Positions 1-64,000 of a DNA stretch of 64,000 bases are shown here, in pieces. The first letter of the stretch is position 1; each line of letters begins with the position of its first letter. The DNA is from an uncultured candidate division Zixibacteria bacterium. Its GTDB lineage: Bacteria > Zixibacteria > MSB-5A5 > UBA10806. Below the pieces are notes generated by a model. That model was given only the letters and a program-made list of their open reading frames with translations, was not told the DNA's origin and made no database searches. The stretch is from contig CAWFQL010000016.1 in NCBI GenBank assembly GCA_963817915.1, forward strand, positions 128,171-192,170. Direction: 5' to 3'. The position numbers were made by a program, and so were the translations under genes.

Positions 1-396
1 ACGCGGACTGCGGCGAGCACGATAGATCGCATTATCGATGTTTTCCCTTCGGTGCAGCAGCAGCAGATACGAATAATGCTGGCCGATTCAATTATCGGAG
101 TCATTTCACAACAGCTCGTCAGAAAAGCCGATAATTCCGGGCGAACTGTAGCGTTTGAGCTTCTAACGAGAGCGGCTTCCCTCTCTAATCTCATAAGAGA
201 AGCCAAGACCCATCAAATACCAACGGCGATACAAACCGGGAAAAAATTGGGAATGCAGCTACTCGATAATCATCTACGAGAGCTTATTGACAATGGGACA
301 ATAACCCCCGACGAAGCCATGCGAGTCGCTATCGATCCGGCGACCTTCAATTCATACAAAACGAGCCGAACTTCTCAGGAGTTTGTGAAAGTCTAA
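1..396 (+). CDS. pilT: Twitching-motility ATPase PilT, C-terminal fragment; the gene starts upstream of the window
   Basis: Frame 1 is open from nt 1. The translation IDRIIDVFP..QQQQIRIMLADS..TGKKLGMQLLDNHL matches the conserved PilT/PilU C-terminal region. Stop at 394-396. Confidence 0.8.
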   Translation, partial: TRTAASTIDRIIDVFPSVQQQQIRIMLADSIIGVISQQLVRKADNSGRTVAFELLTRAASLSNLIREAKTHQIPTAIQTGKKLGMQLLDNHLRELIDNGTITPDEAMRVAIDPATFNSYKTSRTSQEFVKV

Positions 397-2546
397 TGGG
401 AGCGAACACCAGAAAAATACGACTCGACGAAATCCTCATGCGTGAGGGATTTATTGATAAAAATCAAGTCGCGGAGGCGCTGCTTCGTCAAAAAGCCCAT
501 GGCGGCAAATTCGGCTCCCAGCTTCTCTATCATCGCTATATCGACGAGCCAACCCTGGTCAAAGCGCTTTCAATTCAATTCGAATGCGAAGGTATCGTGC
601 TTTCCGAAATTGAAATTCCGGATTCGGTCATTAAACTGATTCATCCGCGATTGGTGACTTCGCGAAAGATCATTCCATTCGAATATGACGCCAAGGCCAA
701 TATCCTCAAAGTGGCCTGTATTGACCCATCGGATCCGAATGTAATCAACGAAGTGAGCTTCATGGCGCCCGGCAAAAAGGTTAAATTTTATGTGGCCGCC
801 GAACTTGCAATCGAGACAGCTATCGAAAAATACTACCTTGGACGAAAAACCAAACTCGATGACAATTTGCTTATAGATATACCCGAAGTTGTTGTCGAGA
901 CAAGCGGTAAGCCGGTTCCAAACAAACAAATACAGGCACCCGATAAAGCAGGATCATCAAAATCAATTTTGATTATTACCGACGAAGAATACAATGCCTC
1001 TTTACTGCAATCCATATTTGAACGGGATAGCTATAAAGTCCATATCTGCGAAAACATTGAGAAAGCCGGCGAATACGTAGATCGAGAAAGATTTTGCGCC
1101 GTATTGATAAGAGACACATTAGAGGGCGATTTCAACAATCTGGTCGATAGAATCCGCAGAAATTCGCCTCAGACTCTAATTCAGAAATATAAGACAACAT
1201 CGTCATTGATATTGGGCGATGATGATTACGCTGGAGCCGAGGATATCCTCAAGCGCAATCTCGATCTTTTTACATCGATGCTCTCCTCAAAAGACAGTCT
1301 TCCCGAAAATCATAGCGGAATGGTCGGTCGAAATGTTGACAAGCTATGCCGCAAGCTCGGTATTCCATTGAAGGATCGCCTGACCGTGACCAATGCCGGT
1401 TATATTCACGATCTGGCCAAATATTATTACAGAGAAATCGATCCCAAGGATTACCACGCCATAATTGGATTTTCTATCAAGCTCCTGGAATCATTGGATT
1501 ATACGCCTTCGGTAATCGGAATTCTAAAAGCGATGTACAAGGACCTCAAAGGGGAATATGCCCATAATCTTCCGCTGGAAATATTAGGCGGCAATATTCT
1601 TACGATAGTCGACCTCTTCTGCGAAAATATACCATTCGATCAAAGGCTGACACTCGACAAGTTTGACGCTGTCAAGAAGAGGCTCAGAGACCTTTCGGGG
1701 AAATTATTCCTAAGCGAGGTAGTTGAAGCGTTTATCTCGATGATTCAGGAAGAGATTTTGAATATTCAGACAATCGGCAATGTCGGCCAGATAATGCTTT
1801 ATACCAATGATCCCCAGGCATCATATCCGCTCGAATTGCGATTGAAGAATGAAGGCTTCCGCAATATCACTGAAAATTCGCTGGAGGCATTCGCCGAGCT
1901 ATATCATAGATCGCGGCCTGATATTATTATTCTAAGTCTCAGGGGTGAGCCTGAAAAAATAATCGATGCTATCGATGAGCTTGCTCGCTTGGGGCTCGAA
2001 TACAAAAAGACCCCTACATTCCTGCTCGTGGATATATCTAAATCATCCAAGCTGGCGCCGCTTTTTGAAAAAGGAATCGAGGATGTTATCTCCAACGATG
2101 CCAATTATGATCTGCTGATTGTCAAAATGCGAAAGATTCAGGCCCATCTCGAAGAAGAAGCCAGACAGAGCATAGATCCGAAATCAGCCAATAATGAAGT
2201 TGTCGGGGCAAGAGGACGGCTTTCGGATATGAACCTGATCGATCTAACCCAGGCGCTTGCCCCAGGAAGACGGACCGTGAAGATAACTGTAATTAACCAG
2301 GATTCCAGTGATGATAAGCTTATAATTTATCTAAATAAAGGTAGCATTGTATTCGCCCAGCTTAATGACAAGAAAGGTCCAATGGCTATCTACGAAGGTA
2401 TGGCGTGGTCTGATGGCGCCTGGGTAGTCGAACCTATTACGCCCGATAATATTCCCGAGCCCAATAATGATCTCTCCAACGACGCTATCCTCATGGAAGG
2501 CGCCTATCAACTCGACGAAAGAGTCAGAGCCGGAAAATTAGTCTAA
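396..2546 (+). CDS. Multidomain signalling protein: N-terminal T2SSE_N/MshEN-like c-di-GMP-binding domain, receiver-like domains, HD-type domain, C-terminal DUF4388-like domain
   Basis: The ATG overlaps the pilT stop (TAATGG). The N-terminus resembles the GspE N-terminal (MshEN) fold. A central H..HS..V..LA..LG...IHDLAK segment resembles an HD/HD-GYP core. Two CheY-like segments lack the phospho-accepting Asp. The C-terminus (DLTQALAPGRRTVKITV...GSIVFAQL) resembles DUF4388. Confidence 0.55.
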   Translation: MGANTRKIRLDEILMREGFIDKNQVAEALLRQKAHGGKFGSQLLYHRYIDEPTLVKALSIQFECEGIVLSEIEIPDSVIKLIHPRLVTSRKIIPFEYDAKANILKVACIDPSDPNVINEVSFMAPGKKVKFYVAAELAIETAIEKYYLGRKTKLDDNLLIDIPEVVVETSGKPVPNKQIQAPDKAGSSKSILIITDEEYNASLLQSIFERDSYKVHICENIEKAGEYVDRERFCAVLIRDTLEGDFNNLVDRIRRNSPQTLIQKYKTTSSLILGDDDYAGAEDILKRNLDLFTSMLSSKDSLPENHSGMVGRNVDKLCRKLGIPLKDRLTVTNAGYIHDLAKYYYREIDPKDYHAIIGFSIKLLESLDYTPSVIGILKAMYKDLKGEYAHNLPLEILGGNILTIVDLFCENIPFDQRLTLDKFDAVKKRLRDLSGKLFLSEVVEAFISMIQEEILNIQTIGNVGQIMLYTNDPQASYPLELRLKNEGFRNITENSLEAFAELYHRSRPDIIILSLRGEPEKIIDAIDELARLGLEYKKTPTFLLVDISKSSKLAPLFEKGIEDVISNDANYDLLIVKMRKIQAHLEEEARQSIDPKSANNEVVGARGRLSDMNLIDLTQALAPGRRTVKITVINQDSSDDKLIIYLNKGSIVFAQLNDKKGPMAIYEGMAWSDGAWVVEPITPDNIPEPNNDLSNDAILMEGAYQLDERVRAGKLV

Positions 2547-5367: not shown

Positions 5368-5489
5368 GCTGATCACTCGATAAAATAATGGACGATTAAA
5401 GTCCATCTTGTTAGTTTGTAAAGCTATTAAACTACCCCCTAAATGGAAAAACCCCATAAAGTTTATAAAAAAGTTGTCGAAATCTATTA

Positions 5490-5525
5490 TTGTTATTGAC
5501 AATTTATGACTTTGGTCATAAAAAC
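5490..5525 (+). promoter_or_regulatory. Candidate sigma70-type promoter (TTGACA-17-TAAAAA) with an embedded palindrome ATGAC-N5-GTCAT upstream of the cytochrome operon
   Basis: ttgacaatttatgactttggtcataaaaa lies about 180 nt upstream of the decahaem cytochrome start. The palindrome overlaps the spacer in an operator-like arrangement. Confidence 0.3.
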
Positions 5526-5705
5526 GGGAATTGCATGCGATTAATGGATTAGTCGCTGCGATGCTAAAGAGGGATGAGGGGTTCTAAACAAAGGTAAAAT
5601 CTCAAAGATAAACTAATAATCTCTATAAATATGGGGAAAGCGACAGTTGAAGTGCCTAAGGTTTGTGAAAATAATAACAAATACCAGTTTAAGGACTAAA
5701 TCGTA

Positions 5706-6659
5706 ATGGACAAAACGTTAAAACTTGTCATCGGTGCGGTCACAATCCTATGCCTGTCTATTTTCTTTGCGGCATCTGCGTCTTCCAAGCAATACAGCAG
5801 ACAGGAAATGATTGAGAAATCCGCGGCTTGTTTCGATTGTCATTCGGAGCAAGTCACATCTCTGGCCGGAACGCCTCACCAAATCGGCGCCGCCACAGAT
5901 CTAAAGTCACCAGTAACGGTAGGATGTATCGGATGCCATGACGGATGGGAAAAGCATCTCGAAGGGCCGTCAACCGAGAACATCAAGAAACCATCCAACG
6001 CCAGCCAGGCTGATCAGGCCGAAATCTGCGGCCGTTGTCACGTGACAACCCATCAGCAGGCGATGGTTTCGACAGACCCTCATGTCCGAGGCAATGTCAC
6101 ATGCCTTACCTGCCATTCGATTCACGGCAACAAGACGGCCAAGCTGACAAAAGATGGCGATGATAATTATTGCGCGTCGTGTCATACTAATGTCATGCTT
6201 GAATTCAAACGCCGTTCGGCTCATCCTCTAAATTCGGGCAATATTCGCTGCACAAGCTGTCACGCTCTCTCGTCCATAAAGGACAAGACATTGGCAGTGG
6301 GCATCGACTGGACTTGCCAGAATTGCCATTCCGACAAATCGGGACCGTTCCCGTATGAGCATCCGGTGGTCAATAATCATCTGGTCAATGGCGGCGGCTG
6401 CACGGAATGTCATCAACCTCACGGCTCTAATAACGATCGTTTGTTGAACGAGCCGGATAGAAGACTTTGTCAGCAATGCCATTCGACTCCGCCCGGCCAT
6501 TTCACGAATCATGACGGTCTGGGCAGCAAGCTCGAATGTCAAAATTGTCATTCGGATATTCACGGTTCATTTGATAATAGAAAACTCCTTGATCCCAATT
6601 TGGGAACAAGGTATTTCCCGGATTGTTTCCAGTCCGGCTGTCACATATTCGGCAATTAA
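5706..6659 (+). CDS. Periplasmic decahaem c-type cytochrome (MtrA/OmaB-like)
   Basis: N-terminal signal peptide. Ten canonical CxxCH motifs plus one possible CX4CH (CFQSGCH) in 317 aa. Confidence 0.8.
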   Translation: MDKTLKLVIGAVTILCLSIFFAASASSKQYSRQEMIEKSAACFDCHSEQVTSLAGTPHQIGAATDLKSPVTVGCIGCHDGWEKHLEGPSTENIKKPSNASQADQAEICGRCHVTTHQQAMVSTDPHVRGNVTCLTCHSIHGNKTAKLTKDGDDNYCASCHTNVMLEFKRRSAHPLNSGNIRCTSCHALSSIKDKTLAVGIDWTCQNCHSDKSGPFPYEHPVVNNHLVNGGGCTECHQPHGSNNDRLLNEPDRRLCQQCHSTPPGHFTNHDGLGSKLECQNCHSDIHGSFDNRKLLDPNLGTRYFPDCFQSGCHIFGN

Positions 6660-6668
6660 GGAGGGGCG

Positions 6669-8216
6669 ATGAAAACGGTTAACAAAATCTTGATCGCCGC
6701 GATTCTGACTATTTTTACCACAAGTCTGGTATTTGCTGGTGGCAGCGGCGACCTAAAACTCGGTTATACTTATCTTTCCGATAAGGGAAATCTGGCAATG
6801 AGCCAGCCGACATTCAATGATTATAAAGGTATCGGGCTCTCTCTTGAAAATTTCAGATATCAGTGCAGCAAGGGAACGATTTTCCGCGCGGACCTGAAAA
6901 ATATCACTCTCGACAATCGCAATCTCAATCTCGGTATCGAAAAAGCGGGCCTATGGGGCCTCAACGCCAACTTGAACAAGTATCGCAGGATTTACGATTT
7001 CGAAGGTAAGGATGCGACCAAGCGCGACCAATTTGGAAGCGATCTTTGGGTAAATCTGAATAAGAGACTGAGAATATTCGGCGGATTTTCATCGATTGGA
7101 TTGAAGGGGAAAATCGACGATTCATTCAATCTCGGCGCGGATGCTCCCCGTCAGATGGAATACAGTCAAAAGAATTACAATGTCGGCGCCAGAATTAATT
7201 GCAATGGCGGCATGTTCCAGGCCGAGTATTTGAAAATAAATTACAAAGATAAAAAGATTTCCGATAGAGACCAGGACCGTCAGAATGTAAGGCTTAACGC
7301 TCTGATGCCGGTTTTGAAGAATAATCGATTGATCGCGTCCGGCGGATTCCAATCATTCGAGACAAAATACACCGCCAGCGGCTTTAAGATCAAATCGAAT
7401 ACAGTTTGGGGCGGTGGCCTTTTGAATTTGCCGCATCATTTTTCGGTTAATTATAATTTCATCTTCAATCGCGCCGGTTCCGATAGCGATATGGTCAAGA
7501 CCGACAATATCGCCAATACGGTTTATTTGAATCATGTCTGGCCAAATCTCGCCGGTTTGACAGTCGGTTATCAGAACGATATCCGCGACGATTTCGACAA
7601 GCAATTAAAATCCAATTCATATTATTTCTCCGGATGGGTTACCAAAAACCGTTGCGAATTGAGGGCAGACTACGGCTCGCGCGCCGAAGATGTAAAGAAG
7701 GGCACGAGACTGGTCGGCAACGAAGACCGCACCCGATTCAAAGTTCAGACCAAATACCGTTATACCGATGCCACCTGGCTGGGATTGTCGTACGAGGGCA
7801 AGCAACGCAAGAATGATGATATCGGAAGCAAAGCCGACTTCAATCGCTTTGGTGCTCAATGCGCCGTAAAATTTGGCGATCTGTTTAATCTCAATGGCGG
7901 CTATTTCTACGCCACCGGAAAATATAAAAATATCGAATCCGAATTCAAATTCACAGATCATGAATTATTCGGCGATATTACATTAAAAGAATTTTGCAGA
8001 TTAACACCCGGATTCGGCGCGCTTTATTATAGAAGCAAACGCGATCTTGATATTGAGCATTTCAATCTCAGATTCAGCGGCACATACAGGCTGGTCTCTG
8101 ATTTTGAATTGGAAGCGATTTACAACGTTTACAATTTCGATGATTTTCTTGTTAGCGACAGATATTATACTTCAAACATAGTTGAAATAAACTTAATTAA
8201 GGGATTTTCATTCTAA
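6669..8216 (+). CDS. Outer-membrane beta-barrel protein, putative porin component of a porin-cytochrome conduit
   Basis: Signal peptide, alternating amphipathic beta-strand pattern, terminal ...KGFSF (C-terminal Phe). Flanked by multihaem cytochromes with short intergenic gaps (9 and 16 nt). Confidence 0.55.
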   Translation: MKTVNKILIAAILTIFTTSLVFAGGSGDLKLGYTYLSDKGNLAMSQPTFNDYKGIGLSLENFRYQCSKGTIFRADLKNITLDNRNLNLGIEKAGLWGLNANLNKYRRIYDFEGKDATKRDQFGSDLWVNLNKRLRIFGGFSSIGLKGKIDDSFNLGADAPRQMEYSQKNYNVGARINCNGGMFQAEYLKINYKDKKISDRDQDRQNVRLNALMPVLKNNRLIASGGFQSFETKYTASGFKIKSNTVWGGGLLNLPHHFSVNYNFIFNRAGSDSDMVKTDNIANTVYLNHVWPNLAGLTVGYQNDIRDDFDKQLKSNSYYFSGWVTKNRCELRADYGSRAEDVKKGTRLVGNEDRTRFKVQTKYRYTDATWLGLSYEGKQRKNDDIGSKADFNRFGAQCAVKFGDLFNLNGGYFYATGKYKNIESEFKFTDHELFGDITLKEFCRLTPGFGALYYRSKRDLDIEHFNLRFSGTYRLVSDFELEAIYNVYNFDDFLVSDRYYTSNIVEINLIKGFSF

Positions 8217-8232
8217 GAAGGAGAGGGAATCT

Positions 8233-9288
8233 ATGAAGAAGATTCTACTAATCACTGCGGCCCTGGCTATCTTGCTGTTCTTGGTTTCTGGATGCGAACG
8301 GAAGGTAGTCAATCAGGCTAGCAATGACGCAAACACAACGTGTTTCATGTGCCATAACGGCGACGGCCGTATCGAGACCGCCGACGCTCAATGGCGGAAC
8401 TCACTGCACGGTTCAGGCAGATTGACATTCGACACCAACCGTTCTGGCTGCTCGGCATGCCATACTCAGCCCGGTTTTATTGAACAGGTAAATACCGGCG
8501 GAACCGCTAGCGCTCCATATGCCAATATCACGGCTATCGGATGCCATACCTGCCATATGCCGCATGAGTCTGGCAATCTTGACCTCAGGACCACAGCCGC
8601 GGTCGCGTTGCTCGATGGTTCTACATTTGACCACGGCGAGGCGAATCTTTGCGCCAGCTGCCATCATTCTCGTTTGGCAGTATCAGTTATAGCTGATGCC
8701 GGCGACAGCATTTCGCTCACAAGCAGCCGTTGGGGCCCGCATCACGGCCCGCAGGGCGACCTTATCAATGGTACTAATGCTTATGAATATGCCGGAGTCA
8801 CTTACCCGACATCGAGCCCTCACGCCGCTGCGATCACCAATGCATGCATTGGATGCCACATGGGCAGCGCAGTGATTGAAGAAGGTTACAAGGTCGGCGG
8901 TCATAGCTGGAACATGGTTGACGCGGCAGACGAATCTATTAATCTTGCTGACAATTGCGTAGCATGCCATGAAAGCATGCCTGAAGGCGCTGCAAGTTAT
9001 GACGAAATGACCGTTTCGGTTAATTGGAATGGCGCGGATACGACGGTAAATTGCCAGAGCTTCATCGTATTCCTGTCCGATTCGTTACAGACACTACTTG
9101 TCGCTGACTCTCTCTTAACCAGCAGTGGCAGCGTAATTACTCAGACGGTTGAAGCCGGCAAAGCCGGAGCAATCTATAATCTGAAATTTATCCAGGAAGA
9201 TCGTTCCGAGGGCATTCACAACTACCCATATTCATTGGCTCTCTTGACTTCAGCTATTGACTATTTGAATGATCATCCAGCACCGTAG
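8233..9288 (+). CDS. Hexahaem c-type cytochrome lipoprotein, probably cell-surface
   Basis: Lipobox LVSGC. Six CxxCH motifs. Confidence 0.75.
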   Translation: MKKILLITAALAILLFLVSGCERKVVNQASNDANTTCFMCHNGDGRIETADAQWRNSLHGSGRLTFDTNRSGCSACHTQPGFIEQVNTGGTASAPYANITAIGCHTCHMPHESGNLDLRTTAAVALLDGSTFDHGEANLCASCHHSRLAVSVIADAGDSISLTSSRWGPHHGPQGDLINGTNAYEYAGVTYPTSSPHAAAITNACIGCHMGSAVIEEGYKVGGHSWNMVDAADESINLADNCVACHESMPEGAASYDEMTVSVNWNGADTTVNCQSFIVFLSDSLQTLLVADSLLTSSGSVITQTVEAGKAGAIYNLKFIQEDRSEGIHNYPYSLALLTSAIDYLNDHPAP

Positions 9289-9304: not shown

Positions 9305-9340
9305 AAAAGCCCTCGTCACAATGACGGGGGCTTTTTTTAT
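9305..9340 (+). terminator. Rho-independent terminator
   Basis: aaaagccctcgtcacaatgacgggggctttttttat: a GC-rich stem followed by a T7 tract, directly after the cytochrome stop. Confidence 0.6.
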
Positions 9341-9351
9341 TGGCTGTTTTT

Positions 9352-11500: not shown

Positions 11501-13651
11501 ATGAGAATCGTAAATAAATCTATTGTCAGGGCAATAAGAATTGTGTTTTTCGGCTTATTGCTTCTGGTTATTTTTGTTGTAAACACATTCGGACAATTCC
11601 TTGAATATTCTAATTCATCGCTATGGTCGAATGTTACTGCAATAAAAGCTTCAGGAAACTACGCATATTGTCAATTTACCGAAGGACTTGGCATACTCGA
11701 TATCTCAGATCCGGCCAATCCATCCCTCATTGGAAAATTCGCAATCCCCGGATATTCACTCGCGATCGATGTTTCGGGAAGCTATGCGTTCGTGGCGGCA
11801 TCGGACGGCTTGAGAATTTACAATGTCTATTCACCTCAGAATACTGTACTTCTATCGATATATAATGGGCATGTTTCGGTAAGGGATGTTTGTGCCAGCG
11901 GCGCTTATGCGTATTTGGCGGCGCAGGATCAATTTGAAATAGTTGATATCAGCAATCCATATTCTCCATACCGTACCGGATATATCGATCAAATTTCCGC
12001 ATCCATTGTTGCAGCTGCAGATGGCTATGCTTATATCTCAGATAATAGCCAGCCAAATTATCGCGTCAATATAATTAATGTGCAAAATGCAGCTAATCCA
12101 GATTTAATAACCCAATTTCAGGCATCGAATTTTGTTTCTGATCTGGCAGTTCAGGGTGATCGATTATATGTTTTGTTAGGCGATGCGGGCACCATGAATG
12201 GAGGCATCCAGATATTCGATATTAGCAACCCCAATAATCCAAATTCATTAGGCGAACTTGACATATTTGGATCACCACGCAATATCGAGATTGCCGGGTC
12301 TTATGCCTATATTGCAAATCTCTGGAGAGGACTCGATGTCATCGATATTTCAAATCCCGAAAGTCCAACATTGGTGGCCGAGAGAATTACTACGGCCGCA
12401 TTTGGAGTTTCGGTTTCAGGTGATTATGCATTCGTGGCCGATGAACCATTTGGAGTGATTGCATTTGATAAGAGCGATCCGCAGAACCCCGAGCAAATTG
12501 GAGGGTATCAGCCGCCGGGAGAAATTTGGAACCTGACAGTTGTAGATACACTTCTTTATGTAGCAGAACTAAATAAAGCCATGTCCATAGTGAATATCGC
12601 CGATCCGGCGCATCCGAATGTAATAGGACAACTCAGCGTTTATAATATTTGGGGCGATATCCTTGTGAATGGAGGTTATGCTTATATAAAAAACTATTCA
12701 CATCTTTTGGTAATAAATATAACTGACCCAACCAATCCATCTCTTGTCACGTCATTTTATCCTCTCGGCTGTGCCATGTGCCAGGCAATAAGAGGCAATT
12801 ATGCGTTCCTTTCAGAAGGTGATTGCTATAGTCCGAGCTTCACCGGAATGGAAATCATTGACATCACAGACCCCTCGTCCCCGATTTCAATAGGCTCGTA
12901 TGCGACCCCCGGTACGGCGATGGATTTGAAGTTAGTCGGAAATTATGCTTTTATAATATACAGATATGCCAATGAAAATCCATCAGCCGGTATGCAAGTC
13001 GTTGATATTTCTGATCTCGAAAACCCACAATTTGTTGCGGGCTATGATTTGCATTCTCCAGCATCGATGGAAATTGTCGGAAATTATGTGTTTATTGCGG
13101 ATGAAGCAAATGGGCTTAAGATTGTTGACATTTCCGATCCAGCAAATCCGACCTTTGAAGGACGCTATACGCCATATTCAGGAAATCCACAGCATGTCTC
13201 GATCAGTGGAAACTATGCGTTTCTTAGCAATAGAATTTGCCTAACAGCTGTTGACGTCTCAGATCCATCGAATCCAAGTTTCGTTGATCAATTTTGCACC
13301 CCCGGACAGCCGATGATGACAGATGTGGCAGGCCATGATATTTATCTTGCCGATAGATATGCGCTGACGGTCCTGAGATTCACCGGCAATTGCACGGGTG
13401 TATCTGGTGATGCCAATGACGACGGAGCATTCAACAGTCTTGATATCGAGTATTCCATAAATTATTTTAAGGGGTCTCAGGCGCCTCCCCCCTGTCAGTT
13501 GGATTGCTCTCCTAACGAATTGCTGTATAGCGAAGCCGATGCCAATGGCGATTGTCGTTTCAATGGATTCGATATTACTTACGGGGTAAATTATTTAAAA
13601 GGAAACGGGCCAGCACCGGAATCGTGTCCTGACTGCCATTTCTATCGATAA
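11501..13651 (+). CDS. Secreted LVIVD-repeat beta-propeller protein with C-terminal dockerin-type repeats
   Basis: Many repeats of GNYAY/GSYAF..A....GL.I.DISNP.NP. The C-terminus has two DANxDG...D calcium-binding dockerin-like repeats. Confidence 0.55.
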   Translation: MRIVNKSIVRAIRIVFFGLLLLVIFVVNTFGQFLEYSNSSLWSNVTAIKASGNYAYCQFTEGLGILDISDPANPSLIGKFAIPGYSLAIDVSGSYAFVAASDGLRIYNVYSPQNTVLLSIYNGHVSVRDVCASGAYAYLAAQDQFEIVDISNPYSPYRTGYIDQISASIVAAADGYAYISDNSQPNYRVNIINVQNAANPDLITQFQASNFVSDLAVQGDRLYVLLGDAGTMNGGIQIFDISNPNNPNSLGELDIFGSPRNIEIAGSYAYIANLWRGLDVIDISNPESPTLVAERITTAAFGVSVSGDYAFVADEPFGVIAFDKSDPQNPEQIGGYQPPGEIWNLTVVDTLLYVAELNKAMSIVNIADPAHPNVIGQLSVYNIWGDILVNGGYAYIKNYSHLLVINITDPTNPSLVTSFYPLGCAMCQAIRGNYAFLSEGDCYSPSFTGMEIIDITDPSSPISIGSYATPGTAMDLKLVGNYAFIIYRYANENPSAGMQVVDISDLENPQFVAGYDLHSPASMEIVGNYVFIADEANGLKIVDISDPANPTFEGRYTPYSGNPQHVSISGNYAFLSNRICLTAVDVSDPSNPSFVDQFCTPGQPMMTDVAGHDIYLADRYALTVLRFTGNCTGVSGDANDDGAFNSLDIEYSINYFKGSQAPPPCQLDCSPNELLYSEADANGDCRFNGFDITYGVNYLKGNGPAPESCPDCHFYR

Positions 13652-16287: not shown

Positions 16288-17592
16288 TTAAAAATCGAAA
16301 TCTACCAGCGTAGTTAGAATATCTTCTTTGATCGGATTGTCTTTACCGGTTTGACGGTGAGTATATTCAGCATGCAATGCTACATTGACTGCGGTCCAGT
16401 CACCGAGATAATATCGCGCGAGCAATGAGATCGCGGATATTTTTTTGTCATTATCGTATGATGGTGGCGTGACAAAATTATAGAGCCCGGAAAGGACAAG
16501 CCTATTGTCCATCAATCCGTTATAATCAAGCTGGACAAATCCACCGGTAAATGTGTACGCCTTGGTAGTGTCTAAATCATTGAATTTCTTATTGTCGTTG
16601 CCGTTCATGATGAGGGTTGTCAGATTGAATGATTCATAATTCAGGCTTACATGTCCGCCGATTCTCATGAAGCTCTGGTTATCGGTGCCATGATCATCTC
16701 CCATATTTGGAAGATTGAGATATGCCGAATGAATTGGTTGCCAGCCGGTATAGGCAAATATCCCTATTCGTTGTCCGGCGCTTTGTCCGTCGCCTTTGCC
16801 AATTGTTTGCGAGAGGCTCAGGTAGATATCCTTGTAAGTATTATTATCCGGATTCCCCCCAGTGCCATTAACAATTCCCAGGCCATATTTGAATCCCGTC
16901 TTAAAATGGCTGGAGGCTTCCACACCAAACTGATTTTCGGAAAAACTGAATCGATTTCCTGAATAACCGAACGGATTTAGACTGCTGGGCGAATTGAAAT
17001 TGTAAATCTCATAGGGCTGGATTAGATAGAGCGAACGTTTGGCACTGATTTGCTGGTAGGCTGGCTCGAATCGTCCGATTCTCAAATTTAGCTTATCTTC
17101 GAAGATGTTGCTGAATACGATATTGGCCGATTCCAAAGCTCCAATCTGGGACGGATTATATCCCGCTTGCGATGCTGAATAATCCATTGTTGGCACATCG
17201 ACTCTTGGAGTATAGACAATAAGAAACGACACATTCTTATGCAGAACACCCGCCGCCAATAAATCAAATCCATAGTAATGAAATCCAGAAGTTGTCTCTT
17301 TGGTGGTTTCTTGTGTCGCATTATTTAATGTATGTCCTACCGATGTTCTTATTGAAATTGGCGGCATGGTTTCGAATACATTCTTTTCATTGCCTTCTTG
17401 TCCGGGAATCTGATAACCATTATCGCGGTATCTCTGCCCGAAATCATTGAGCTTGGTGAAGGCCACATGGCACATATTGCAATTAAACCCGTTCTTACGA
17501 GCGAAGGCGGGTATCGATTGTGCGGTTTTGGGAATAAACAACGTTATTCCAACGAAAACCGTCACTAATAATAGAATGATTGTTTTTCTCAT
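16288..17592 (-). CDS. Outer-membrane beta-barrel protein with an N-terminal single CxxCH haem-binding motif
   Basis: Signal peptide (MRKTIILLLVTVFVGITLF), CNMCH motif about 25 aa after the cleavage site, beta-barrel-like body ending ...LVDFDF. The start overlaps the upstream ccp stop. Confidence 0.5.
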   Translation of the reverse strand: MRKTIILLLVTVFVGITLFIPKTAQSIPAFARKNGFNCNMCHVAFTKLNDFGQRYRDNGYQIPGQEGNEKNVFETMPPISIRTSVGHTLNNATQETTKETTSGFHYYGFDLLAAGVLHKNVSFLIVYTPRVDVPTMDYSASQAGYNPSQIGALESANIVFSNIFEDKLNLRIGRFEPAYQQISAKRSLYLIQPYEIYNFNSPSSLNPFGYSGNRFSFSENQFGVEASSHFKTGFKYGLGIVNGTGGNPDNNTYKDIYLSLSQTIGKGDGQSAGQRIGIFAYTGWQPIHSAYLNLPNMGDDHGTDNQSFMRIGGHVSLNYESFNLTTLIMNGNDNKKFNDLDTTKAYTFTGGFVQLDYNGLMDNRLVLSGLYNFVTPPSYDNDKKISAISLLARYYLGDWTAVNVALHAEYTHRQTGKDNPIKEDILTTLVDFDF

Positions 17593-17602
17593 ATCCCCTC
17601 CC

Positions 17603-18673
17603 TCACTTCGGCATTTCGGATTGCGGAATAGGTTTGGCATCTCGAATTTCGGGATTCAAACTGGTTATTGAAACTTTCAGAAATGCTACCAACGCCGCAG
17701 CTTCTGATTTGGATAGCCCCAACGGCACCATCAAGGGATCGAGAGTCTCTTTATTATCCCCACCGCCCCTGTTATAGAAATTGACTACATCCTCGAGGGT
17801 TTTCTCACCGCCGGTATGCATATAAGGCGCCCGTAGCGCGGCATCTCTTACTGTCGGGGTCTTGAATGCTCCCTTATCGGCCGGATTTTTGGTTACATCG
17901 TAACGGCCATTATCGGTTTTATTCGGACCGGTTTGAGTCACTCCCAAATTATGGAATCTGCCATCGCTGAAATACGATCCCCAATGGCATGCAGTGCAAT
18001 GTCCCTTGCCGTTGAAAATTTCGAGACCCATCTTTTCCTGTTTGGTTAAGGCATTCTGGTCGCCGCGGACATATCTATCGAATGGCGAATCAGTGGTCAC
18101 TACAGTTCTCTCGTAGGCGGCAATAGCTTGAGCCACCTGATCAACTGTGATCGGGGTTGTCCCGAAAACATCCTTGAATTCCTGAACATATCCCGGAACA
18201 TCATTGAGTGTCTTTACCATTACGTCGTGGGTATTCCCCATTTCTATTGGATTCTGAACCGGGCCCTTGGCTTGTTCTTCAAGGCTTGGCGCTCTGCCAT
18301 CCCAGAATTGCAGAGGGCTGTGAGCGGCATTCGATACTGGTGGAGCTCTTCTTCCCCCAATTTGCCCACGGATACCTGTACTTGTGGGCCCCGCATCTGA
18401 CCAGCCCTTAGCTGGATCATGACATGTGGCACAGGCGACTGTGCCATCCTGTGAAAGCCTGTTGTCAAAATATAATTGTTTACCTAATTGAATTTTCGCT
18501 GTTGTCTGCGGATTGTCCGGCGGTGCGATTACCGCTGGAAGATTGCCCGGCCGTTCCGGCCCCTTCATATGCACGCCGACAGATGTTATTGGAGTCTGCG
18601 AATTTTCACCCGCCCATGCCATTAACGGCACAAGCATTACCGCAACCAACAACATCCCCAAAATCTTGTTCAT
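17603..18673 (-). CDS. Dihaem cytochrome c peroxidase (CcpA/MauG family)
   Basis: Signal peptide. Two CxxCH motifs (CATCH, CTACH) with the family-typical spacing and the conserved GRFHNLG region. Confidence 0.85.
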   Translation of the reverse strand: MNKILGMLLVAVMLVPLMAWAGENSQTPITSVGVHMKGPERPGNLPAVIAPPDNPQTTAKIQLGKQLYFDNRLSQDGTVACATCHDPAKGWSDAGPTSTGIRGQIGGRRAPPVSNAAHSPLQFWDGRAPSLEEQAKGPVQNPIEMGNTHDVMVKTLNDVPGYVQEFKDVFGTTPITVDQVAQAIAAYERTVVTTDSPFDRYVRGDQNALTKQEKMGLEIFNGKGHCTACHWGSYFSDGRFHNLGVTQTGPNKTDNGRYDVTKNPADKGAFKTPTVRDAALRAPYMHTGGEKTLEDVVNFYNRGGGDNKETLDPLMVPLGLSKSEAAALVAFLKVSITSLNPEIRDAKPIPQSEMPK

Positions 18674-26277: not shown

Positions 26278-26961
26278 TTAATCCTTATTGCCTTTAGGCC
26301 CATTTCTTCTGAATCGAATTACAAATGCCGAAAGCCCTGCTCCAAACAAGAGCAACGTGGACGGTTCAGGGACTGGACCCGGAATAGGATCGATAGGGAG
26401 ACCATTGTCATCGACAGCCTGCACGCCATCAACTCTAACCACCATGTCTTCATAATCCCAATCACCATATGCCCAATCTTCCCAAGCCAGAATATACGAA
26501 TTGGGAACATACTGCCCATTTACTTCCGTGCGATATACATAAAGGTGATCAGCTCCATCGCGATTTAGCGCTCGTTCTGAATACCAATGCTCATCCATCT
26601 CTGGTCTTTCCTGCCCGTTGTAGTTTGTCCATATATTAAATCCGAAAACTCCGTCAAGGTCAGGTAGGTAAGCTGATGGTTGAAGTCCAGTAAGGATTCC
26701 TCCAATTAACCAATTTTCCATGCTTGTGCCGTCATACCACCCAAAGGCTGTGCCTCTGCTAAGTGAACTATATTGGTTTATGATAGTTGCATTACTCTGA
26801 TTAATTTGAAAAAACAATTCACCACTCATAATATCGTTGTTGGCATTAATTGAATATCCGAGTGCATTCATAACAATCTGCAATGATCCCAAGTTCTGAC
26901 AGAGAGATATTTCACTTATTGGACCTAAAACAATCAAAAACGTTATGAACATTTTCTTCAT
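26278..26961 (-). CDS. PEP-CTERM sorting-domain secreted protein with a DUF4114-like motif
   Basis: Signal peptide. C-terminal VPEPSTLLLFGAGLSAFVIRFRR (PEP motif, TM helix, basic tail). DWDYEDMVVRV just upstream. Confidence 0.7.
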   Translation of the reverse strand: MKKMFITFLIVLGPISEISLCQNLGSLQIVMNALGYSINANNDIMSGELFFQINQSNATIINQYSSLSRGTAFGWYDGTSMENWLIGGILTGLQPSAYLPDLDGVFGFNIWTNYNGQERPEMDEHWYSERALNRDGADHLYVYRTEVNGQYVPNSYILAWEDWAYGDWDYEDMVVRVDGVQAVDDNGLPIDPIPGPVPEPSTLLLFGAGLSAFVIRFRRNGPKGNKD

Positions 26962-29734: not shown

Positions 29735-30031
29735 TTAAGGTAGCACTGTTGGAAGCCATCCCGTTTCAAGTTCTCCGCTTTTGTTAAGATTGGAATGAAA
29801 CTTCCAGACCGTGCCGGTTTGGGTATCAATCTTAAAAACCTCATCATTGCTAACCTTTACTCGAAGGTTTTCATCAAAGTGACTGTAATGGCCCTGAAAA
29901 AGCTGATATCTTTCTATTTCTCCTCTTGCGCCTGATTGTGCACTTGAGGGCTTATCCAATAACAGTTGAACAAGAATTACAGCGATAGCCGATACCAGCA
30001 GAATCGTCTTGATTTTTTCAATCTTAAACAT
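29735..30031 (-). CDS. Small secreted hypothetical protein
   Basis: 98 aa with an N-terminal hydrophobic signal-like segment. Confidence 0.35.
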   Translation of the reverse strand: MFKIEKIKTILLVSAIAVILVQLLLDKPSSAQSGARGEIERYQLFQGHYSHFDENLRVKVSNDEVFKIDTQTGTVWKFHSNLNKSGELETGWLPTVLP

Positions 30032-30316
30032 AGTATTTTCGCCTTTCTTTTAAGCGTTTTCAGGATCATTCATATATCGCGTATAAGCGTGCCCCATGTT
30101 TTTCGCCTGTAAAATCTAATTTGCTTCCTGACTTACAGTTGCTTCTCCTACCTCCCCAGCACCTCCAGGCTCGCGTATTTGACCATCAGCTTTTTGGTGC
30201 CGGCTCGTTCGAAACGGACTGTTACCATCAGATTATCGCCGGAGCCCTCGCGCGCCATCACTATCCCATGACCGAATTTATCATGCATCACCGCCGTGCC
30301 GATTGCTAACATATCG

Positions 30317-32363: not shown

Positions 32364-32403
32364 TATATAAATTTGATTTTGCTTAACAAGCGGTAAAAAG
32401 CTG

Positions 32404-62197: not shown

Positions 62198-62659
62198 GTG
62201 GAAAATAAAAAAATGCCTCGGCGAGATGTCATCAACTATCTTCTTGGTGCAGGGGTGGGCGCGTTGGGTGCGGCTACTATATATCCCATAATCAGGTATA
62301 TTCTTCCTCCACCGGCGTCCGAAAGCGGAACATCCTCGGTTTCGGCGGCGAAGGTCGGAGAGCTGCAGCCCAATCAAGGGAAGATTTTCAAATTCGGCAA
62401 TCTGCCCGCGATACTTGTTTTAAAGCAAGGGGGCGATCCTAAGAGCGCGTTAAGCTATGTGGCTTTCACAGCGGTCTGCACTCATCTCAATTGTACGGTT
62501 CAATATCGCGCCGAAGGCGGGGATATCTGGTGCGCCTGCCATAATGGCCATTACGATCTAAACGGAAATGTTATCTCAGGGCCTCCACCTGCACCATTGA
62601 CTCAATACGATGTCTCGATCAAGGGTGAAGACATATTCGTCTCGGCGAAGGGGGCATGA
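62198..62659 (+). CDS. Rieske [2Fe-2S] iron-sulphur subunit of a cytochrome bc-type complex
   Basis: Tat-like [17 protein letters not shown]. Rieske boxes CTHLNC and CACHNGHY. Confidence 0.8.
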
Positions 62660-63729
62660 TGGATAATCGCAATTGGTTATATCGCTGGTTTGACGAACGA
62701 GTTGATCTTCAGAGTCTCGAAGATCTTCTCCATCATAAGAAGGTTCCGTATCATCGACATTCACTCTGGTACTATATAGGTGGAATGTCGCTTTTTCTTT
62801 TTATAGTCCAGGTAGTGACAGGAATTCTGCTTCTGCTCTATTATAAACCGACTGCGGAAGCGGCCTATGAATCGGTTCAGTATATCATGACCGGCGTGCC
62901 GTTCGGATGGCTAGTGCGGTCAATTCATTCATATTCAGCAAATTTATTTATCGGCTTTGCGTTTCTGCATATGTTTTCGGTTTTCTTTATGAAGGCCTAT
63001 AGAAGGCCGCGAGAATTGACCTGGATTTCGGGAGCTTTGCTCTTATTTCTGGCGCTGGGTTTTGGATTTTCCGGCTACCTTCTCCCCTGGAATCAACTCG
63101 CTTATCTGGCCACCAATGTCGGAACCGAGTTCTCGGTCATGGTGCCATTCGTGGGCAAATGGATTCTGCAATTCCTACGCGGAGGCGATCAGGTTACAGG
63201 AGCGACATTAACAAGATTTTTTGGATTCCACGTGGCGGTGCTTCCCGGTATAACAACGACGATTCTGACAATACATTTGTTGTTCGTTCAACGGCAGGGA
63301 ATGAGCGTGCCGATTTCTATCGAAAAAGAAATAGCGGCCGGTAAAGCCAAAAAACGCGAGATTCCATTTTTGCCAAACTTCCTATATCGCGATGTTATGG
63401 GCTGGACATTGGCGCTGGGTCTGATCGTGCTTTTATCATCGCTGTTTCCATGGGAATTGGGAGACAAGGCGGATATGCTTAAGCCTGCCCCACCGCATAT
63501 CAAACCTGAATGGTATTTTGTCTTTATGTATCAGACTTTAAAGTATGTGCCGAAATTAGTGGGAGTCTTTGGATTTGCCATTTTAGGAGGAATCTGGGTG
63601 CTGCTGCCATTTTTCGATTCAAAATCCAATCGCGGACAACACAACAGGCTATATACCATAATTGGGATTGTAGTAGTCGCCTATATGGTGGTAATGACTG
63701 CAGTCGGTTATCTGGCGCCGGGGGAATAA
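62656..63729 (+). CDS. Cytochrome b subunit (fused N- and C-terminal b/b6 domains)
   Basis: Conserved haem-ligating His in helices B and D ([13 protein letters not shown]...R; FHVAVLPG). The ATG overlaps the Rieske stop. Confidence 0.8.
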
Positions 63730-63730
63730 G

Positions 63731-64000
63731 ATGAAAAAAATATTAATATTTACATTCGCGATAGTATCGGCATATTCAATTTCTCTAACGGCAAAAGAAT
63801 CAAGCTGCATCAAATGCCATCTTTCCAAAGAACAGGTATCCGAGACATCGATCGCGACAGCGTTCATGGCCGGCGATATTCATCGAAGCATGGGATTGGA
63901 TTGCTCGGACTGTCACGGCGGCGATCCCAAGATCGGGTTTGTCGAAAAAGATATGTCGATTTCCATGGATGAGGCAAAAGGATATAAGGCACCACCGGAT
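63731..64000 (+). CDS. c-type cytochrome of the bc complex, N-terminal fragment; runs off the window
   Basis: Signal peptide. CIKCH and CSDCH motifs. Open to the window end. Confidence 0.6.
   Translation, partial: MKKILIFTFAIVSAYSISLTAKESSCIKCHLSKEQVSETSIATAFMAGDIHRSMGLDCSDCHGGDPKIGFVEKDMSISMDEAKGYKAPPD

What the first reader, a model, noticed from the sequence alone, without database searches (positions are those of the whole stretch)
5706..9288. Compact porin-cytochrome module: periplasmic decahaem, 515-aa outer-membrane barrel and hexahaem lipoprotein in one operon
Three co-directional genes with 9- and 16-nt gaps encode: a signal-peptide decahaem cytochrome (10 CxxCH plus a possible CX4CH); a beta-barrel with a C-terminal Phe; and a lipobox-anchored hexahaem cytochrome. 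This is the gene logic of extracellular electron conduits (Shewanella MtrA-MtrB-MtrC, Geobacter OmaB-OmbB-OmcB) that move electrons across the outer membrane to minerals or partner cells. The barrel is shorter than MtrB and the surface cytochrome has only six haems, so this may be an undescribed conduit variant in an FCB-group organism. hypAB lie immediately upstream with no hydrogenase structural genes in the window.
Basis: partly seen in the sequence, partly recalled or inferred. Interest (0 to 1): 0.6.

Follow-up and report, generated by a model that had tools for sequence, protein, structure and literature searches.

The report
Mtr-like conduit with OcwA-type cap
This three-gene operon from a Zixibacteria-like bacterium encodes an outer-membrane "electron wire" related to the Shewanella MtrAB system, but with an extra eleventh haem site, an unusually compact barrel, and a surface-type cytochrome related to OcwA of Gram-positive bacteria instead of MtrC, which bears on how iron cycling is inferred for this uncultured group.

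Summary

- **Protein A** is an MtrA/DmsE homologue (6R2Q chain A, E=3e-30). Its C-terminal CX4CH is conserved in 113 of 120 homologues and replaced by CxxCH in the other 7. Eleven invariant distal His match eleven motifs, so it is probably an undecahaem.
- **Protein B** has no Pfam hit. A confident model (pLDDT 90) is a 26-strand, plug-less barrel whose best solved match is MtrB (TM 0.78). Its family is small (175 representatives, 505-557 aa) and confined to FCB-group phyla.
- **Protein C** is not MtrC-like. It is the C-terminal six-haem module of an OcwA/NrfA-type cytochrome, has no CxxCK, and carries an OcwA-like His-His motif.

The triad is present in 13 of 13 loci examined. The cap varies (6, 8 or 13 haems) but keeps a lipidated "C-ERKV" N-terminus.

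MtrAB homologues in Zixibacteria were reported in 2013 with no outer cytochrome recognised. I rate this a new variant of a known kind. Function and the direction of electron flow are untested.

The parts
5368..5705 (+). 338-nt AT-rich intergenic region upstream of gene A, the presumed promoter region. A hairpin at 5388-5406 follows hypB.
   Evidence: Sigma-70-like matches at 5462 and 5647 are no more frequent than in shuffled sequence, so the promoter itself is not established.
5706..6659 (+). Gene A: secreted MtrA/DmsE-type multihaem cytochrome, 317 aa, with 10 CxxCH plus a C-terminal CX4CH (predicted undecahaem).
   Evidence: TIGR03508 E=1e-49 (169 bits, below the 192 cutoff). PDB 6R2Q chain A E=3e-30 over residues 38-289. 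Eleven invariant motif His and eleven invariant other His in 118 homologues.
6624..6644 (+). Codons for CFQSGCH (residues 307-313 of A): the predicted eleventh haem-attachment site at the outward end of the wire.
   Evidence: CX4CH in 113 of 120 homologues, canonical CxxCH at the same position in the other 7. Present in most related loci.
6669..8216 (+). Gene B: compact 26-strand outer-membrane beta-barrel, 515 aa, with a signal peptide and C-terminal Phe. MtrB-like fold.
   Evidence: AF2 model pLDDT 89.7 with 26 strands by DSSP and no plug. Foldseek top hit 6R2Q_B, E=6e-17, TM 0.78, against about 0.5 for TonB-dependent receptors. No Pfam hit for this protein; weak PF11854 in 6 of 37 relatives.
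8233..9288 (+). Gene C: hexahaem lipoprotein, 351 aa, equivalent to the C-terminal (NrfA-like) module of OcwA-type cytochromes.
   Evidence: Six conserved haem motifs and no CxxCK. Profile hits to NrfA, ONR, OcwA, MccA and OmhA. Foldseek top hit OcwA 6I5B, no MtrC-family hit. 47% identical to the C-terminal half of the 13-haem L003 cap, which aligns collinearly to OcwA.
8284..8310 (+). Lipobox and conserved lipidated N-terminal peptide (V-S-G-C21-E-R-K-V-V).
   Evidence: C-ERK[VIT] or C-DRE follows the lipobox Cys in most of 120 homologues. It is kept even where the cytochrome body is replaced (L009) or doubled (L003).
8734..8754 (+). Codons for G-P-H170-H171-G-P-Q: a His-His motif predicted to sit over the distal face of haem 2, the position of OcwA haem 5 and NrfA haem 1.
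   Evidence: GPHHGPQ occurs in 88 of 120 homologues, with close variants in most others. Register. The OcwA HH380/381 description is from PMC6703420. The placement is inferred, not seen in a structure.
9305..9345 (+). Intrinsic terminator closing the operon.
   Evidence: 14-bp stem (7 G-C pairs), 3-nt loop and T-run.
62198..64000 (+). Rieske (62198-62659), cytochrome b (62656-63729) and a NapC/NirT-like multihaem cytochrome (63698 to the window end). Candidate inner-membrane partner, 53 kb from the operon.
   Evidence: Pfam hits for cytochrome b and the multihaem ORF. The Rieske call rests on its translation, a twin-Arg leader and CTH...CxCH motifs; I did not scan this ORF. The cytochrome b is 73% identical to the one about 1.8 kb downstream of the L008 module. 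Similar gene sets adjoin the module in L005, L007 and L008. The functional link is inferred from neighbourhood only.

Best explanation
The operon encodes a three-part electron conduit across the outer membrane.

**Predicted assembly**
- Protein A, an MtrA-type haem wire with an added eleventh haem at its C-terminal (outward) end, is threaded through protein B.
- Protein B is a minimal-loop, 26-strand MtrB-like barrel.
- On the cell surface the wire contacts protein C. C is a lipid-anchored six-haem cytochrome equivalent to haems 4-9 of the Gram-positive surface reductase OcwA. It is held at the barrel by a conserved lipidated C-ERKV peptide.
- Five of C's haems are predicted bis-His relay centres. 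Haem 2 is predicted to have an open or weakly ligated distal site under a His-His motif, as in OcwA haem 5.

**Predicted electron path**
Electrons from the quinone pool probably pass through a Rieske/cytochrome b complex with multihaem partners and periplasmic cytochromes, then through A to C, and on to extracellular acceptors such as Fe(III)/Mn(IV) minerals, humics, flavins or small oxyanions. The same hardware could run inward.

**Shown versus inferred**
- Shown: homology of A to MtrA; the fold and strand count of B; homology of C to the OcwA/NrfA group; strict synteny.
- Inferred: threading, surface location of C, haem 11 occupancy, the open-site haem, the direction of flow and the substrate.
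For: - **A:** end-to-end alignment to MtrA in the solved MtrCAB complex; TIGR03508 E=1e-49.
- **Eleventh haem site:** universal in 120 homologues, with CX4CH and CxxCH interchanging; matched by exactly 11 invariant non-motif His.
- **B:** 26 strands at pLDDT 90. MtrB is the best and outlying structural match. MtrB is a 26-strand barrel (PMC12133095).
- **C:** lipobox; six conserved haem sites plus six invariant other His; OcwA is the top fold match and no MtrC-family match appears.
- **Cap variants:** the L009 cap hits OcwA at E=9e-19. The L003 cap is collinear with OcwA and 47% identical to C.
- **Synteny:** 13 of 13 loci, including three chosen through C alone.
- **Operon structure:** 9- and 16-nt gaps and a terminator.
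- **Quinone link:** a Rieske/cytochrome b/NapC-like set lies next to the module in 3 loci and is present in this window.
- **OcwA biochemistry:** a surface terminal reductase with open-site CxxCH haems capped by HH motifs (PMC6703420).
Against: - There is no experimental evidence for any member of this module.
- A scores below NCBIfam's curated cutoff. B has no PF11854 hit, and its profile does not reach canonical MtrB by sequence.
- The N-terminal half of the C model has low confidence (pLDDT about 50-60), and the Foldseek E-value to OcwA is only 1e-3.
- Surface exposure of C is inferred. Lipoproteins can also face the periplasm, and no multimer model could be run.
- The HH-motif and open-haem assignment rests on weak alignments and on ligand counting.
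- Castelle et al. 2013 favoured Fe(II) oxidation for the homologous RBG-1 cluster. Direction cannot be read from sequence.
Confidence: 0.68

Rival explanations
1. Same machine, opposite direction. The conduit takes electrons up from Fe(II), reduced minerals or partner cells, as in MtoAB/PioAB, and passes them to the Rieske/cytochrome b complex and terminal oxidases or nitrate reductases.
For: - Castelle et al. 2013 proposed Fe(II) oxidation for the homologous RBG-1 cluster.
- MtoA/PioA do not separate from MtrA in trees, and MtrCAB can run in reverse (PMC8805035).
- A bc-type complex adjoins the module in several loci.
- Cytochrome bd oxidase genes adjoin it in L011.
Against: - Castelle's argument rested on the absence of an outer cytochrome, and a conserved OcwA-type cap is in fact present.
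- OcwA is characterised as a terminal reductase.
- Neither point is decisive, because direction is not encoded in the sequence.
Confidence: 0.3
2. C is a periplasm-facing lipoprotein enzyme, an NrfA/ONR-like reductase of nitrite, hydroxylamine or sulfur oxyanions. It merely shares an operon with an MtoAB-like two-component conduit.
For: - The C-terminal half matches NrfA, ONR and MccA.
- Some database entries name homologues 'nitrite reductase c552'.
- A probable open-site haem.
- OcwA itself reduces nitrite and hydroxylamine slowly.
Against: - No CxxCK in any of 120 homologues.
- The NrfA 'CH-V-E-Y-Y' segment after the haem-3 motif reads 'CH-H-S-R' in C. That this segment supplies NrfA's catalytic Tyr is my recollection, not a tool result.
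- C is only 351 aa, with shortened helices.
- Strict adjacency to the barrel in 13 of 13 loci.
- The cap can be swapped for an OcwA N-module lacking the NrfA-like part while keeping the same lipid-anchor peptide.
- The extra haem on A's outward end suggests a partner on the outside.
Confidence: 0.12
3. The barrel is an ordinary solute porin or receptor, and the cytochrome genes are unrelated neighbours.
For: No Pfam family matches B. Foldseek also lists TonB-dependent receptors with significant E-values.
Against: - B has 26 strands and no plug domain.
- MtrB is a clear outlier as the top hit (TM 0.78 against about 0.5).
- 6 of 37 relatives give weak PF11854 hits.
- B is invariably flanked by the two cytochromes.
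Confidence: 0.03

Closest known systems
Shewanella MtrCAB (PDB 6R2Q) and its two-component relatives MtoAB, PioAB and DmsEF
   Same: - A periplasmic MtrA-type haem wire encoded next to a 26-strand barrel.
- A aligns with MtrA over all ten shared haem motifs.
- B's best structural match is MtrB.
- A lipoprotein cytochrome as third component, as in MtrCAB.
   Different: - Gene order is A-B-C, not C-A-B.
- A carries an eleventh C-terminal haem motif.
- B is about 25% shorter, with minimal loops, lacks the N-terminal CXXC motif and falls outside PF11854.
- The third protein is not an MtrC/OmcA/UndA homologue.
- The host is FCB-group, whereas mtrCAB was found only in Proteobacteria, Acidobacteria and Gemmatimonadetes (PMC8805035).
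OcwA of Thermincola potens (PDB 6I5B) and OmhA of Carboxydothermus ferrireducens (6QVM): Gram-positive cell-surface terminal reductases of the NrfA/ONR/MccA superfamily
   Same: - C and the alternative caps are sequence and fold relatives of OcwA.
- The NrfA-like haem order, the C-terminal helices with the xxSxGxHN motif, and CxxCH (not CxxCK) at the catalytic-haem position.
- A His-His motif between the motifs equivalent to OcwA haems 7 and 8.
   Different: - C has six haems (OcwA haems 4-9), not nine.
- C is lipidated and encoded in a diderm porin-cytochrome operon.
- OcwA is in a monoderm and is not paired with a barrel.
MtrA/MtrB-homologue cluster of Zixibacteria RBG-1 (Castelle et al. 2013, PMC3903129) and the MtrB-like PCC of Ignavibacteria (Arbour et al. 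2020, PMC7399161)
   Same: Probably the same module family. It lies in the same phylum group, has a decahaem-type cytochrome plus barrel, and often sits near a Rieske/cytochrome b (PetAB) pair and other multihaem cytochromes.
   Different: - Those reports describe two components and state that no extracellular cytochrome homologue is present.
- They do not note the eleventh haem motif, the compact barrel family or the OcwA-type cap.
- I could not retrieve the RBG-1 locus itself to confirm identity.
Geobacter Pcc complexes (OmaB-OmbB-OmcB; ExtABCD)
   Same: Same three-part logic: periplasmic multihaem, porin and lipoprotein multihaem. FeGenie flags Zixibacteria as having Geobacter-like PCC operons (PMC7005843).
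   Different: - A is MtrA-like, not an octahaem OmaB.
- The barrel is MtrB-like with 26 strands.
- The cap is OcwA-like, not a dodecahaem OmcB.
- NF041028 (GSU2203 family) scores 160 bits against a cutoff of 325.
Divergent Mtr-like EET clusters of peat Acidobacteriota and Verrucomicrobiota (bioRxiv 10.64898/2026.05.27.727921)
   Same: Sequence-divergent porin-cytochrome clusters. Some have 'OwcA-like' multihaem cytochromes, with modelled Mtr-like assemblies.
   Different: - Different phyla.
- Cytochromes of 8-13 haems.
- No mention of an undecahaem MtrA type, a lipidated ERKV peptide or FCB lineages.

Membership tests
MtrA/DmsE/MtoA/PioA decahaem cytochromes (TIGR03508) | Full-length sequence homology to MtrA with ten collinear CxxCH motifs and a Sec signal peptide | tested here: met
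   6R2Q_A E=3e-30, residues 38-289 against 62-324. Ten CxxCH.
MtrA/DmsE/MtoA/PioA decahaem cytochromes (TIGR03508) | Score above the curated NCBIfam cutoff (192.2 bits) | tested here: not met
   169.1 bits, E=1.2e-49. JGI nevertheless names many close homologues 'DmsE family decaheme'.
MtrA/DmsE/MtoA/PioA decahaem cytochromes (TIGR03508) | Exactly ten haems | tested here: not met
   An eleventh motif is universal in 120 homologues, as CX4CH or CxxCH, with 11 invariant distal-type His. Occupancy by haem cannot be tested here.
MtrB/PioB outer-membrane barrels (PF11854) | 26-strand beta-barrel without a plug, structurally closest to MtrB | tested here: met
   AF2 pLDDT 89.7, 26 strands. 6R2Q_B is the top hit at TM 0.78.
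MtrB/PioB outer-membrane barrels (PF11854) | Match to the Pfam model at the gathering threshold | tested here: not met
   No hit for the window protein. Weak hits (best E=1e-4) in 6 of 37 relatives. The family profile finds no canonical-length MtrB among 1.84 billion representatives and no PDB sequence.
MtrB/PioB outer-membrane barrels (PF11854) | N-terminal CXXC motif of metal-reducing gammaproteobacterial MtrB (recalled from the literature, not checked here) | tested here: not met
   B has five isolated Cys and no CxxC (sequence).
MtrB/PioB outer-membrane barrels (PF11854) | Encoded adjacent to an MtrA-type cytochrome gene | tested here: met
   A 9-nt gap in the window. Adjacent in 13 of 13 loci.
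MtrC/OmcA/MtrF/UndA outer-membrane cytochromes | Ten or eleven haems in two pentahaem domains alternating with two beta-barrel domains; structural similarity to 4LM8-type folds | tested here: not met
   C has six haems, 351 aa and a mostly helical model. No MtrC-family chain appears among the Foldseek PDB hits.
MtrC/OmcA/MtrF/UndA outer-membrane cytochromes | PF22113 (domains II/IV) match | tested here: inconclusive
   31.3 bits against a cutoff of 30. The same model hits unrelated neighbouring cytochromes at 30-37 bits, so it is not specific here.
OcwA / NrfA / ONR / MccA multihaem superfamily | NrfA-type order of the last five haem motifs plus C-terminal helices carrying the xxSxGxHN distal-His motif | tested here: met
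   Profile hits to NrfA (E=9e-6), ONR, OcwA, MccA and OmhA. Motif-by-motif register to NrfA 3UBR. Collinear OcwA alignment through the L003 fusion.
OcwA / NrfA / ONR / MccA multihaem superfamily | CxxCK catalytic haem (NrfA and ONR in the strict sense) | tested here: not met
   No CxxCK in C or in 120 homologues. The equivalent site is CxxCH, as in OcwA.
OcwA / NrfA / ONR / MccA multihaem superfamily | OcwA-type open-site haem capped by a His-His motif | tested here: inconclusive
   An invariant WGPHHGPQ lies at the expected place, and the His count fits five ligands plus a pocket. Haem coordination cannot be seen without a haem-containing structure or spectroscopy.
OcwA / NrfA / ONR / MccA multihaem superfamily | Nine haems (OcwA proper) | tested here: not met
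   C has six. Relatives have 8 (L009) or 13 (L003).
Geobacter Pcc (OmaB/OmbB/OmcB) | Octahaem periplasmic cytochrome, an OmbB-type porin of about 20 strands, and a dodecahaem lipoprotein | tested here: not met
   A is MtrA-like with 10+1 motifs. NF041028 scores 160 bits against 325. B has 26 strands. C has six haems.

The most novel reading that the evidence does not exclude
The triad defines an unrecognised class of outer-membrane electron conduit shared by several FCB-group phyla.

- An eleven-haem MtrA-type wire sits in a minimal 26-strand barrel.
- It is capped by interchangeable OcwA-type lipoprotein modules (6, 8 or 13 haems).
- The caps dock through a conserved lipidated C-ERKV peptide.
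- The cap carries an open-coordination haem, which would make the complex an extracellular catalytic reductase or oxidase rather than a passive wire.

This would link the 'Gram-positive' OcwA solution and the 'Gram-negative' MtrAB solution in one machine. It would also overturn the reasoning that Zixibacteria lack an outer cytochrome and so must oxidise iron.
Probability: 0.35. Interest if true: 0.75.

Novelty: new variant of a known kind. Interest (0 to 1): 0.55.

Why it matters
- **Uncultured iron cyclers.** Zixibacteria and allied FCB phyla are abundant in sediments and aquifers. Surveys repeatedly flag them as iron cyclers through MtrA/MtoA-type hits (PMC3903129, PMC7005843, PMC8478452). 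The founding analysis favoured Fe(II) oxidation because no outer cytochrome was seen. A conserved OcwA-type cap removes that argument and leaves iron, manganese or humic reduction as a serious possibility.
- **Mechanism.** An eleventh haem at the outward tip of an MtrA-type wire, a barrel with the same 26 strands but almost no loops, and swappable caps with a shared anchor peptide together form a natural experiment in how Mtr-type conduits are built. That could guide engineering of shorter synthetic conduits.
- **Annotation.** B is missed by Pfam, and C is sometimes mislabelled as nitrite reductase. HMM-based iron-gene surveys therefore describe this system incompletely.

Tried and rejected
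- **Barrel by sequence:** the single sequence and the family profile found nothing meaningful in the PDB. The link to MtrB is structural, plus weak Pfam hits.
- **The search for related loci with the barrel alignment** failed for lack of a conserved stretch. The single-protein query worked.
- **The look-up of encoding contigs for the window's own barrel:** not on record. The listing of cluster members gave no names or accessions, so the source organism is inferred only from relatives.
- **Model coordinates** are not exposed, so haem-pocket geometry could not be measured.
- **MtrC membership of C** was considered because of PF22113 and rejected.
- **NrfA-type nitrite reductase** was considered and judged unlikely.
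- **The Uet 'undecahaem' system of Tenderiales** was checked as a precedent for 11 haems and found unrelated, because UetJ is an extracellular protein of another type.
- **P0083 as the RBG-1 protein:** suspected from its source tag, but its contigs come from other samples. The RBG-1 locus itself was not examined.
- **An N-terminal sub-alignment of C (A3)** did not recover OcwA by sequence. The OcwA register was obtained through the L003 fusion protein instead.

Full report
**1. Observation**

The gaps are 9 and 16 nt and hold GGAGG-type ribosome-binding sequences. A has ten CxxCH motifs plus a CX4CH (CFQSGCH, residues 307-313). B has no haem motif and ends in Phe. C has six CxxCH, no CxxCK, and a lipobox with Cys21.

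A 338-nt AT-rich gap separates the unit from hypB. A strong intrinsic terminator (14-bp stem plus T-run, 9305-9335) follows C. HypA and HypB are confirmed upstream. No hydrogenase structural gene appeared among the 41 ORFs I scanned.

**2. Protein A is an MtrA-type wire, probably with eleven haems**

- A matches NCBIfam TIGR03508 (DmsE family decahaem) at E=1e-49. The score of 169 bits is below the curated cutoff of 192.
- It aligns from residue 38 to 289 with chain A of 6R2Q, the solved Mtr complex, at E=3e-30, with all ten motifs in register.
- Close homologues are routinely named 'DmsE family decaheme c-type cytochrome'.
- A continues for 28 residues beyond the aligned region and carries the CX4CH there.
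- Of the 120 retrieved homologues, 113 have CX4CH (mostly CYQSGCH) a few residues from the C-terminus. The other 7 have a canonical CxxCH at the same position. That interchange is hard to explain unless the site binds haem.
- In a 118-sequence alignment there are 11 invariant motif His and exactly 11 invariant non-motif His. This is the number needed for eleven bis-His haems.
- In the MtrCAB structure the C-terminal end of MtrA is, as I recall from the structure paper, the end that meets MtrC outside the cell. An added haem there would extend the wire outward. That step is an inference.

**3. Protein B is a compact MtrB-like barrel from a small family of its own**

- B has no Pfam or NCBIfam match and no PDB relative by sequence, even with a family profile.
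- Its homologues are all 'hypothetical' proteins of about 505-557 aa, mostly from Zixibacteria.
- An exhaustive profile search of 1.84 billion representatives found only 175 hits and never reached canonical-length MtrB/PioB.
- Six of 37 relatives give weak PF11854 (MtrB_PioB) hits.
- An AlphaFold2 model built on the family alignment is confident (pLDDT 89.7). It shows 26 beta-strands starting right after the signal peptide, with no plug domain. About 366 of roughly 490 mature residues are in strands.
- Foldseek against the PDB puts MtrB (6R2Q_B) first at E=6e-17 and TM 0.78. It stands clear of the 22-strand TonB-dependent receptors at TM about 0.5. MtrB is a 26-strand barrel (PMC12133095).
- So B has the MtrB architecture in about three quarters of the length, and lies outside the current Pfam definition.

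**4. Protein C is not MtrC-like; it is an OcwA/NrfA-type module**

- The marginal PF22113 hit (31.3 bits against a cutoff of 30) is not specific. The same model hits unrelated neighbouring cytochromes.
- A family profile of C matches NrfA (E=9e-6), octahaem nitrite reductases, MccA, 6I5B and 6QVM, mainly over residues 200-342.
- Soares et al. 2022 (PMC9250108) identify 6I5B as OcwA, the nine-haem cell-surface terminal reductase of Thermincola potens, and 6QVM as OmhA. Both belong to the NrfA/ONR/MccA homologous group.
- The AF2 model of C (pLDDT 74, weak in the N-terminal half) has OcwA as its top PDB match: probability 1.0, about 310 aligned columns, TM 0.48. NrfA enzymes follow, and no MtrC/OmcA/UndA/MtrF chain appears.

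*Independent evidence from the related loci.*
- The third gene of L009 encodes a different, 8-haem lipoprotein. It hits OcwA directly at E=9e-19 over OcwA's N-terminal module.
- The 13-haem, 703-aa cap of the Calditrichota locus L003 is a fusion. Residues 20-366 are 57% identical to the L009 cap. Residues 377-683 are 47% identical to the window's C (E=7e-91).
- The whole L003 protein aligns collinearly with OcwA, at 14-198, 257-318 and 463-484.
- The window's C is therefore the C-terminal six-haem module of an OcwA-like protein, consistent with the 'grafting and pruning' evolution described for this superfamily (PMC9250108).

*Register and coordination.*
- Through NrfA and OcwA, C haems 3-6 correspond to NrfA haems 2-5 and OcwA haems 6-9. 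C haem 2 (C73xxCH) occupies the position of NrfA's catalytic haem and of OcwA haem 5.
- OcwA haem 5 is a CxxCH haem with an open distal site under a His-His motif (PMC6703420).
- C has an invariant WGPHHGPQ (H170/H171) between the motifs equivalent to OcwA haems 7 and 8.
- Its six invariant non-motif His fit five distal ligands plus one pocket His. No homologue has CxxCK.
- I infer, without proof, that C keeps one OcwA-like open-site haem.

**5. The triad is a conserved module**

The order A-B-cap is present in all 13 loci examined:
- the window;
- eight genome loci from Zixibacteria, 'Ignavibacteria'-labelled MAGs, Calditrichota, Krumholzibacteriia and Latescibacteria;
- one locus found through a distant barrel homologue;
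- three loci found through C homologues chosen only for contig length.

All caps begin with a lipobox followed by C-ERK[VIT], or C-DR[ET] in some lineages (C-DRT in Krumholzibacteriia and Latescibacteria). This holds even when the cytochrome body differs. That suggests the peptide is a docking or sorting element specific to the module.

In three loci a Rieske/cytochrome b pair with NapC/NirT-like and other multihaem cytochromes adjoins the module, as Castelle et al. described for RBG-1. In this window the same set lies at 62198-64000. Its cytochrome b is 73% identical to the L008 copy. It is a plausible link to the quinone pool, inferred from neighbourhood only.

**6. Mechanism**

Best explanation (confidence about 0.68): an MtrAB-type trans-outer-membrane conduit capped by an OcwA-type lipoprotein that acts as the extracellular redox interface.

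- Direction is unresolved. I lean towards outward flow, meaning reduction of minerals, humics, shuttles or small oxyanions. The reason is that the cap's closest characterised relative is a terminal reductase.
- Inward flow (Fe(II) or mineral oxidation) remains a strong rival at about 0.3.
- A periplasm-facing enzymatic role for C is less likely (about 0.12). It has no CxxCK, adjacency to the barrel is strict, caps are swappable, and the extra haem sits on A's outward end.
- A plain porin role for B is effectively excluded.

**7. Comparison with the literature and novelty**

- MtrA/MtrB homologues in Zixibacteria were reported in 2013 (PMC3903129), with the explicit statement that extracellular cytochrome homologues were lacking. 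Fe(II) oxidation was therefore favoured.
- FeGenie-based surveys flag Zixibacteria for iron genes (PMC7005843, PMC8478452).
- Arbour et al. [quoted passage not shown]
- Baker et al. 2022 found mtrCAB in only three phyla, none of them FCB (PMC8805035).
- A 2026 preprint notes OcwA-like cytochromes in divergent Mtr-like clusters of Acidobacteriota and Verrucomicrobiota.
- None of the literature I could search describes the eleventh haem motif, the compact barrel family, the OcwA-type modular caps or the shared anchor peptide in FCB lineages.

I classify the finding as a new variant of a known kind, of moderate to good interest (0.55). It is a dissectable and apparently unrecognised architecture. 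It removes an argument used to infer the metabolism of an uncultured phylum. All functional statements remain computational.

Noticed in passing
window 62198-64000 (+): Rieske (62198-62659), cytochrome b (62656-63729) and a NapC/NirT-like multihaem cytochrome that runs off the window end. The cytochrome b is 73% identical to the one next to the conduit module in L008. This may be the inner-membrane partner, unlinked here by 53 kb.
   Followed up: partly
L009 10766-11875; L003 5944-8055: The cap gene is modular. L009 has an 8-haem lipoprotein matching OcwA's N-terminal module. L003 has a 13-haem fusion of that module with the window-type module. All share the lipidated C-ERK[VT] N-terminus.
   Followed up: yes
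L005 7995-9550; L007 6978-9089; L013 2516-3250 and 4879-5930: In some MAG loci the module genes are interrupted or run together: a stop inside the L005 barrel, the A frame running into B in L007, and truncated A and split C in L013. These could be assembly errors or decaying copies.
   Followed up: no
window 11501-13651 (+): A 716-aa LVIVD-repeat beta-propeller protein with a Cys-rich, dockerin-like C-terminus lies 2.2 kb downstream of the operon. LVIVD proteins were proposed as surface-attachment factors in the Tenderiales EET cluster (bioRxiv 10.1101/2022.05.06.490989).
   Followed up: no
window 16288-18673 (-): A di-haem cytochrome c peroxidase (CCP/MauG family, 17603-18673) overlaps the start of a 450-aa ORF with no Pfam match (16288-17640).
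   Followed up: no
window 54400-55410 (-) and 56233-57723 (+): Two BNR-repeat proteins carry T9SS C-terminal sorting domains (Por_Secre_tail). This fits an FCB-group organism with type IX secretion. There is also a PEP-CTERM protein at 26278-26961 (-).
   Followed up: no
window 49171-51004 (-): An acetyl-CoA synthetase-like gene is split into two overlapping ORFs, with the N-terminal part at 50111-51004 and the C-terminal part at 49171-50259. This suggests a frameshift, a pseudogene or a sequencing error.
   Followed up: no
window 30000-32400: Local composition anomaly: GC 0.496 and GC skew -0.14, against about 0.44 and about 0 elsewhere. It lies around a UvrD-type helicase ORF (30915-32363, -) whose UvrD_C domain match is partial, and a pair of overlapping ORFs at 30296-30961.
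   Followed up: no
window 52-2546 (+): A 716-aa protein with MshEN and DUF4388 domains follows a short ORF (52-396). By eye the short ORF resembles the C-terminal end of a PilT-type ATPase, but I did not scan it. This may be a type IV pilus or secretion regulatory locus.
   Followed up: no
L011 1-1502 and 8653-11092: In a 4.46-Mb Zixibacteriota contig the module is flanked upstream by cytochrome bd oxidase subunits I and II, and downstream by further multihaem cytochromes, one of them with a Geobacter-type C4xC/C2xCH domain.
   Followed up: no
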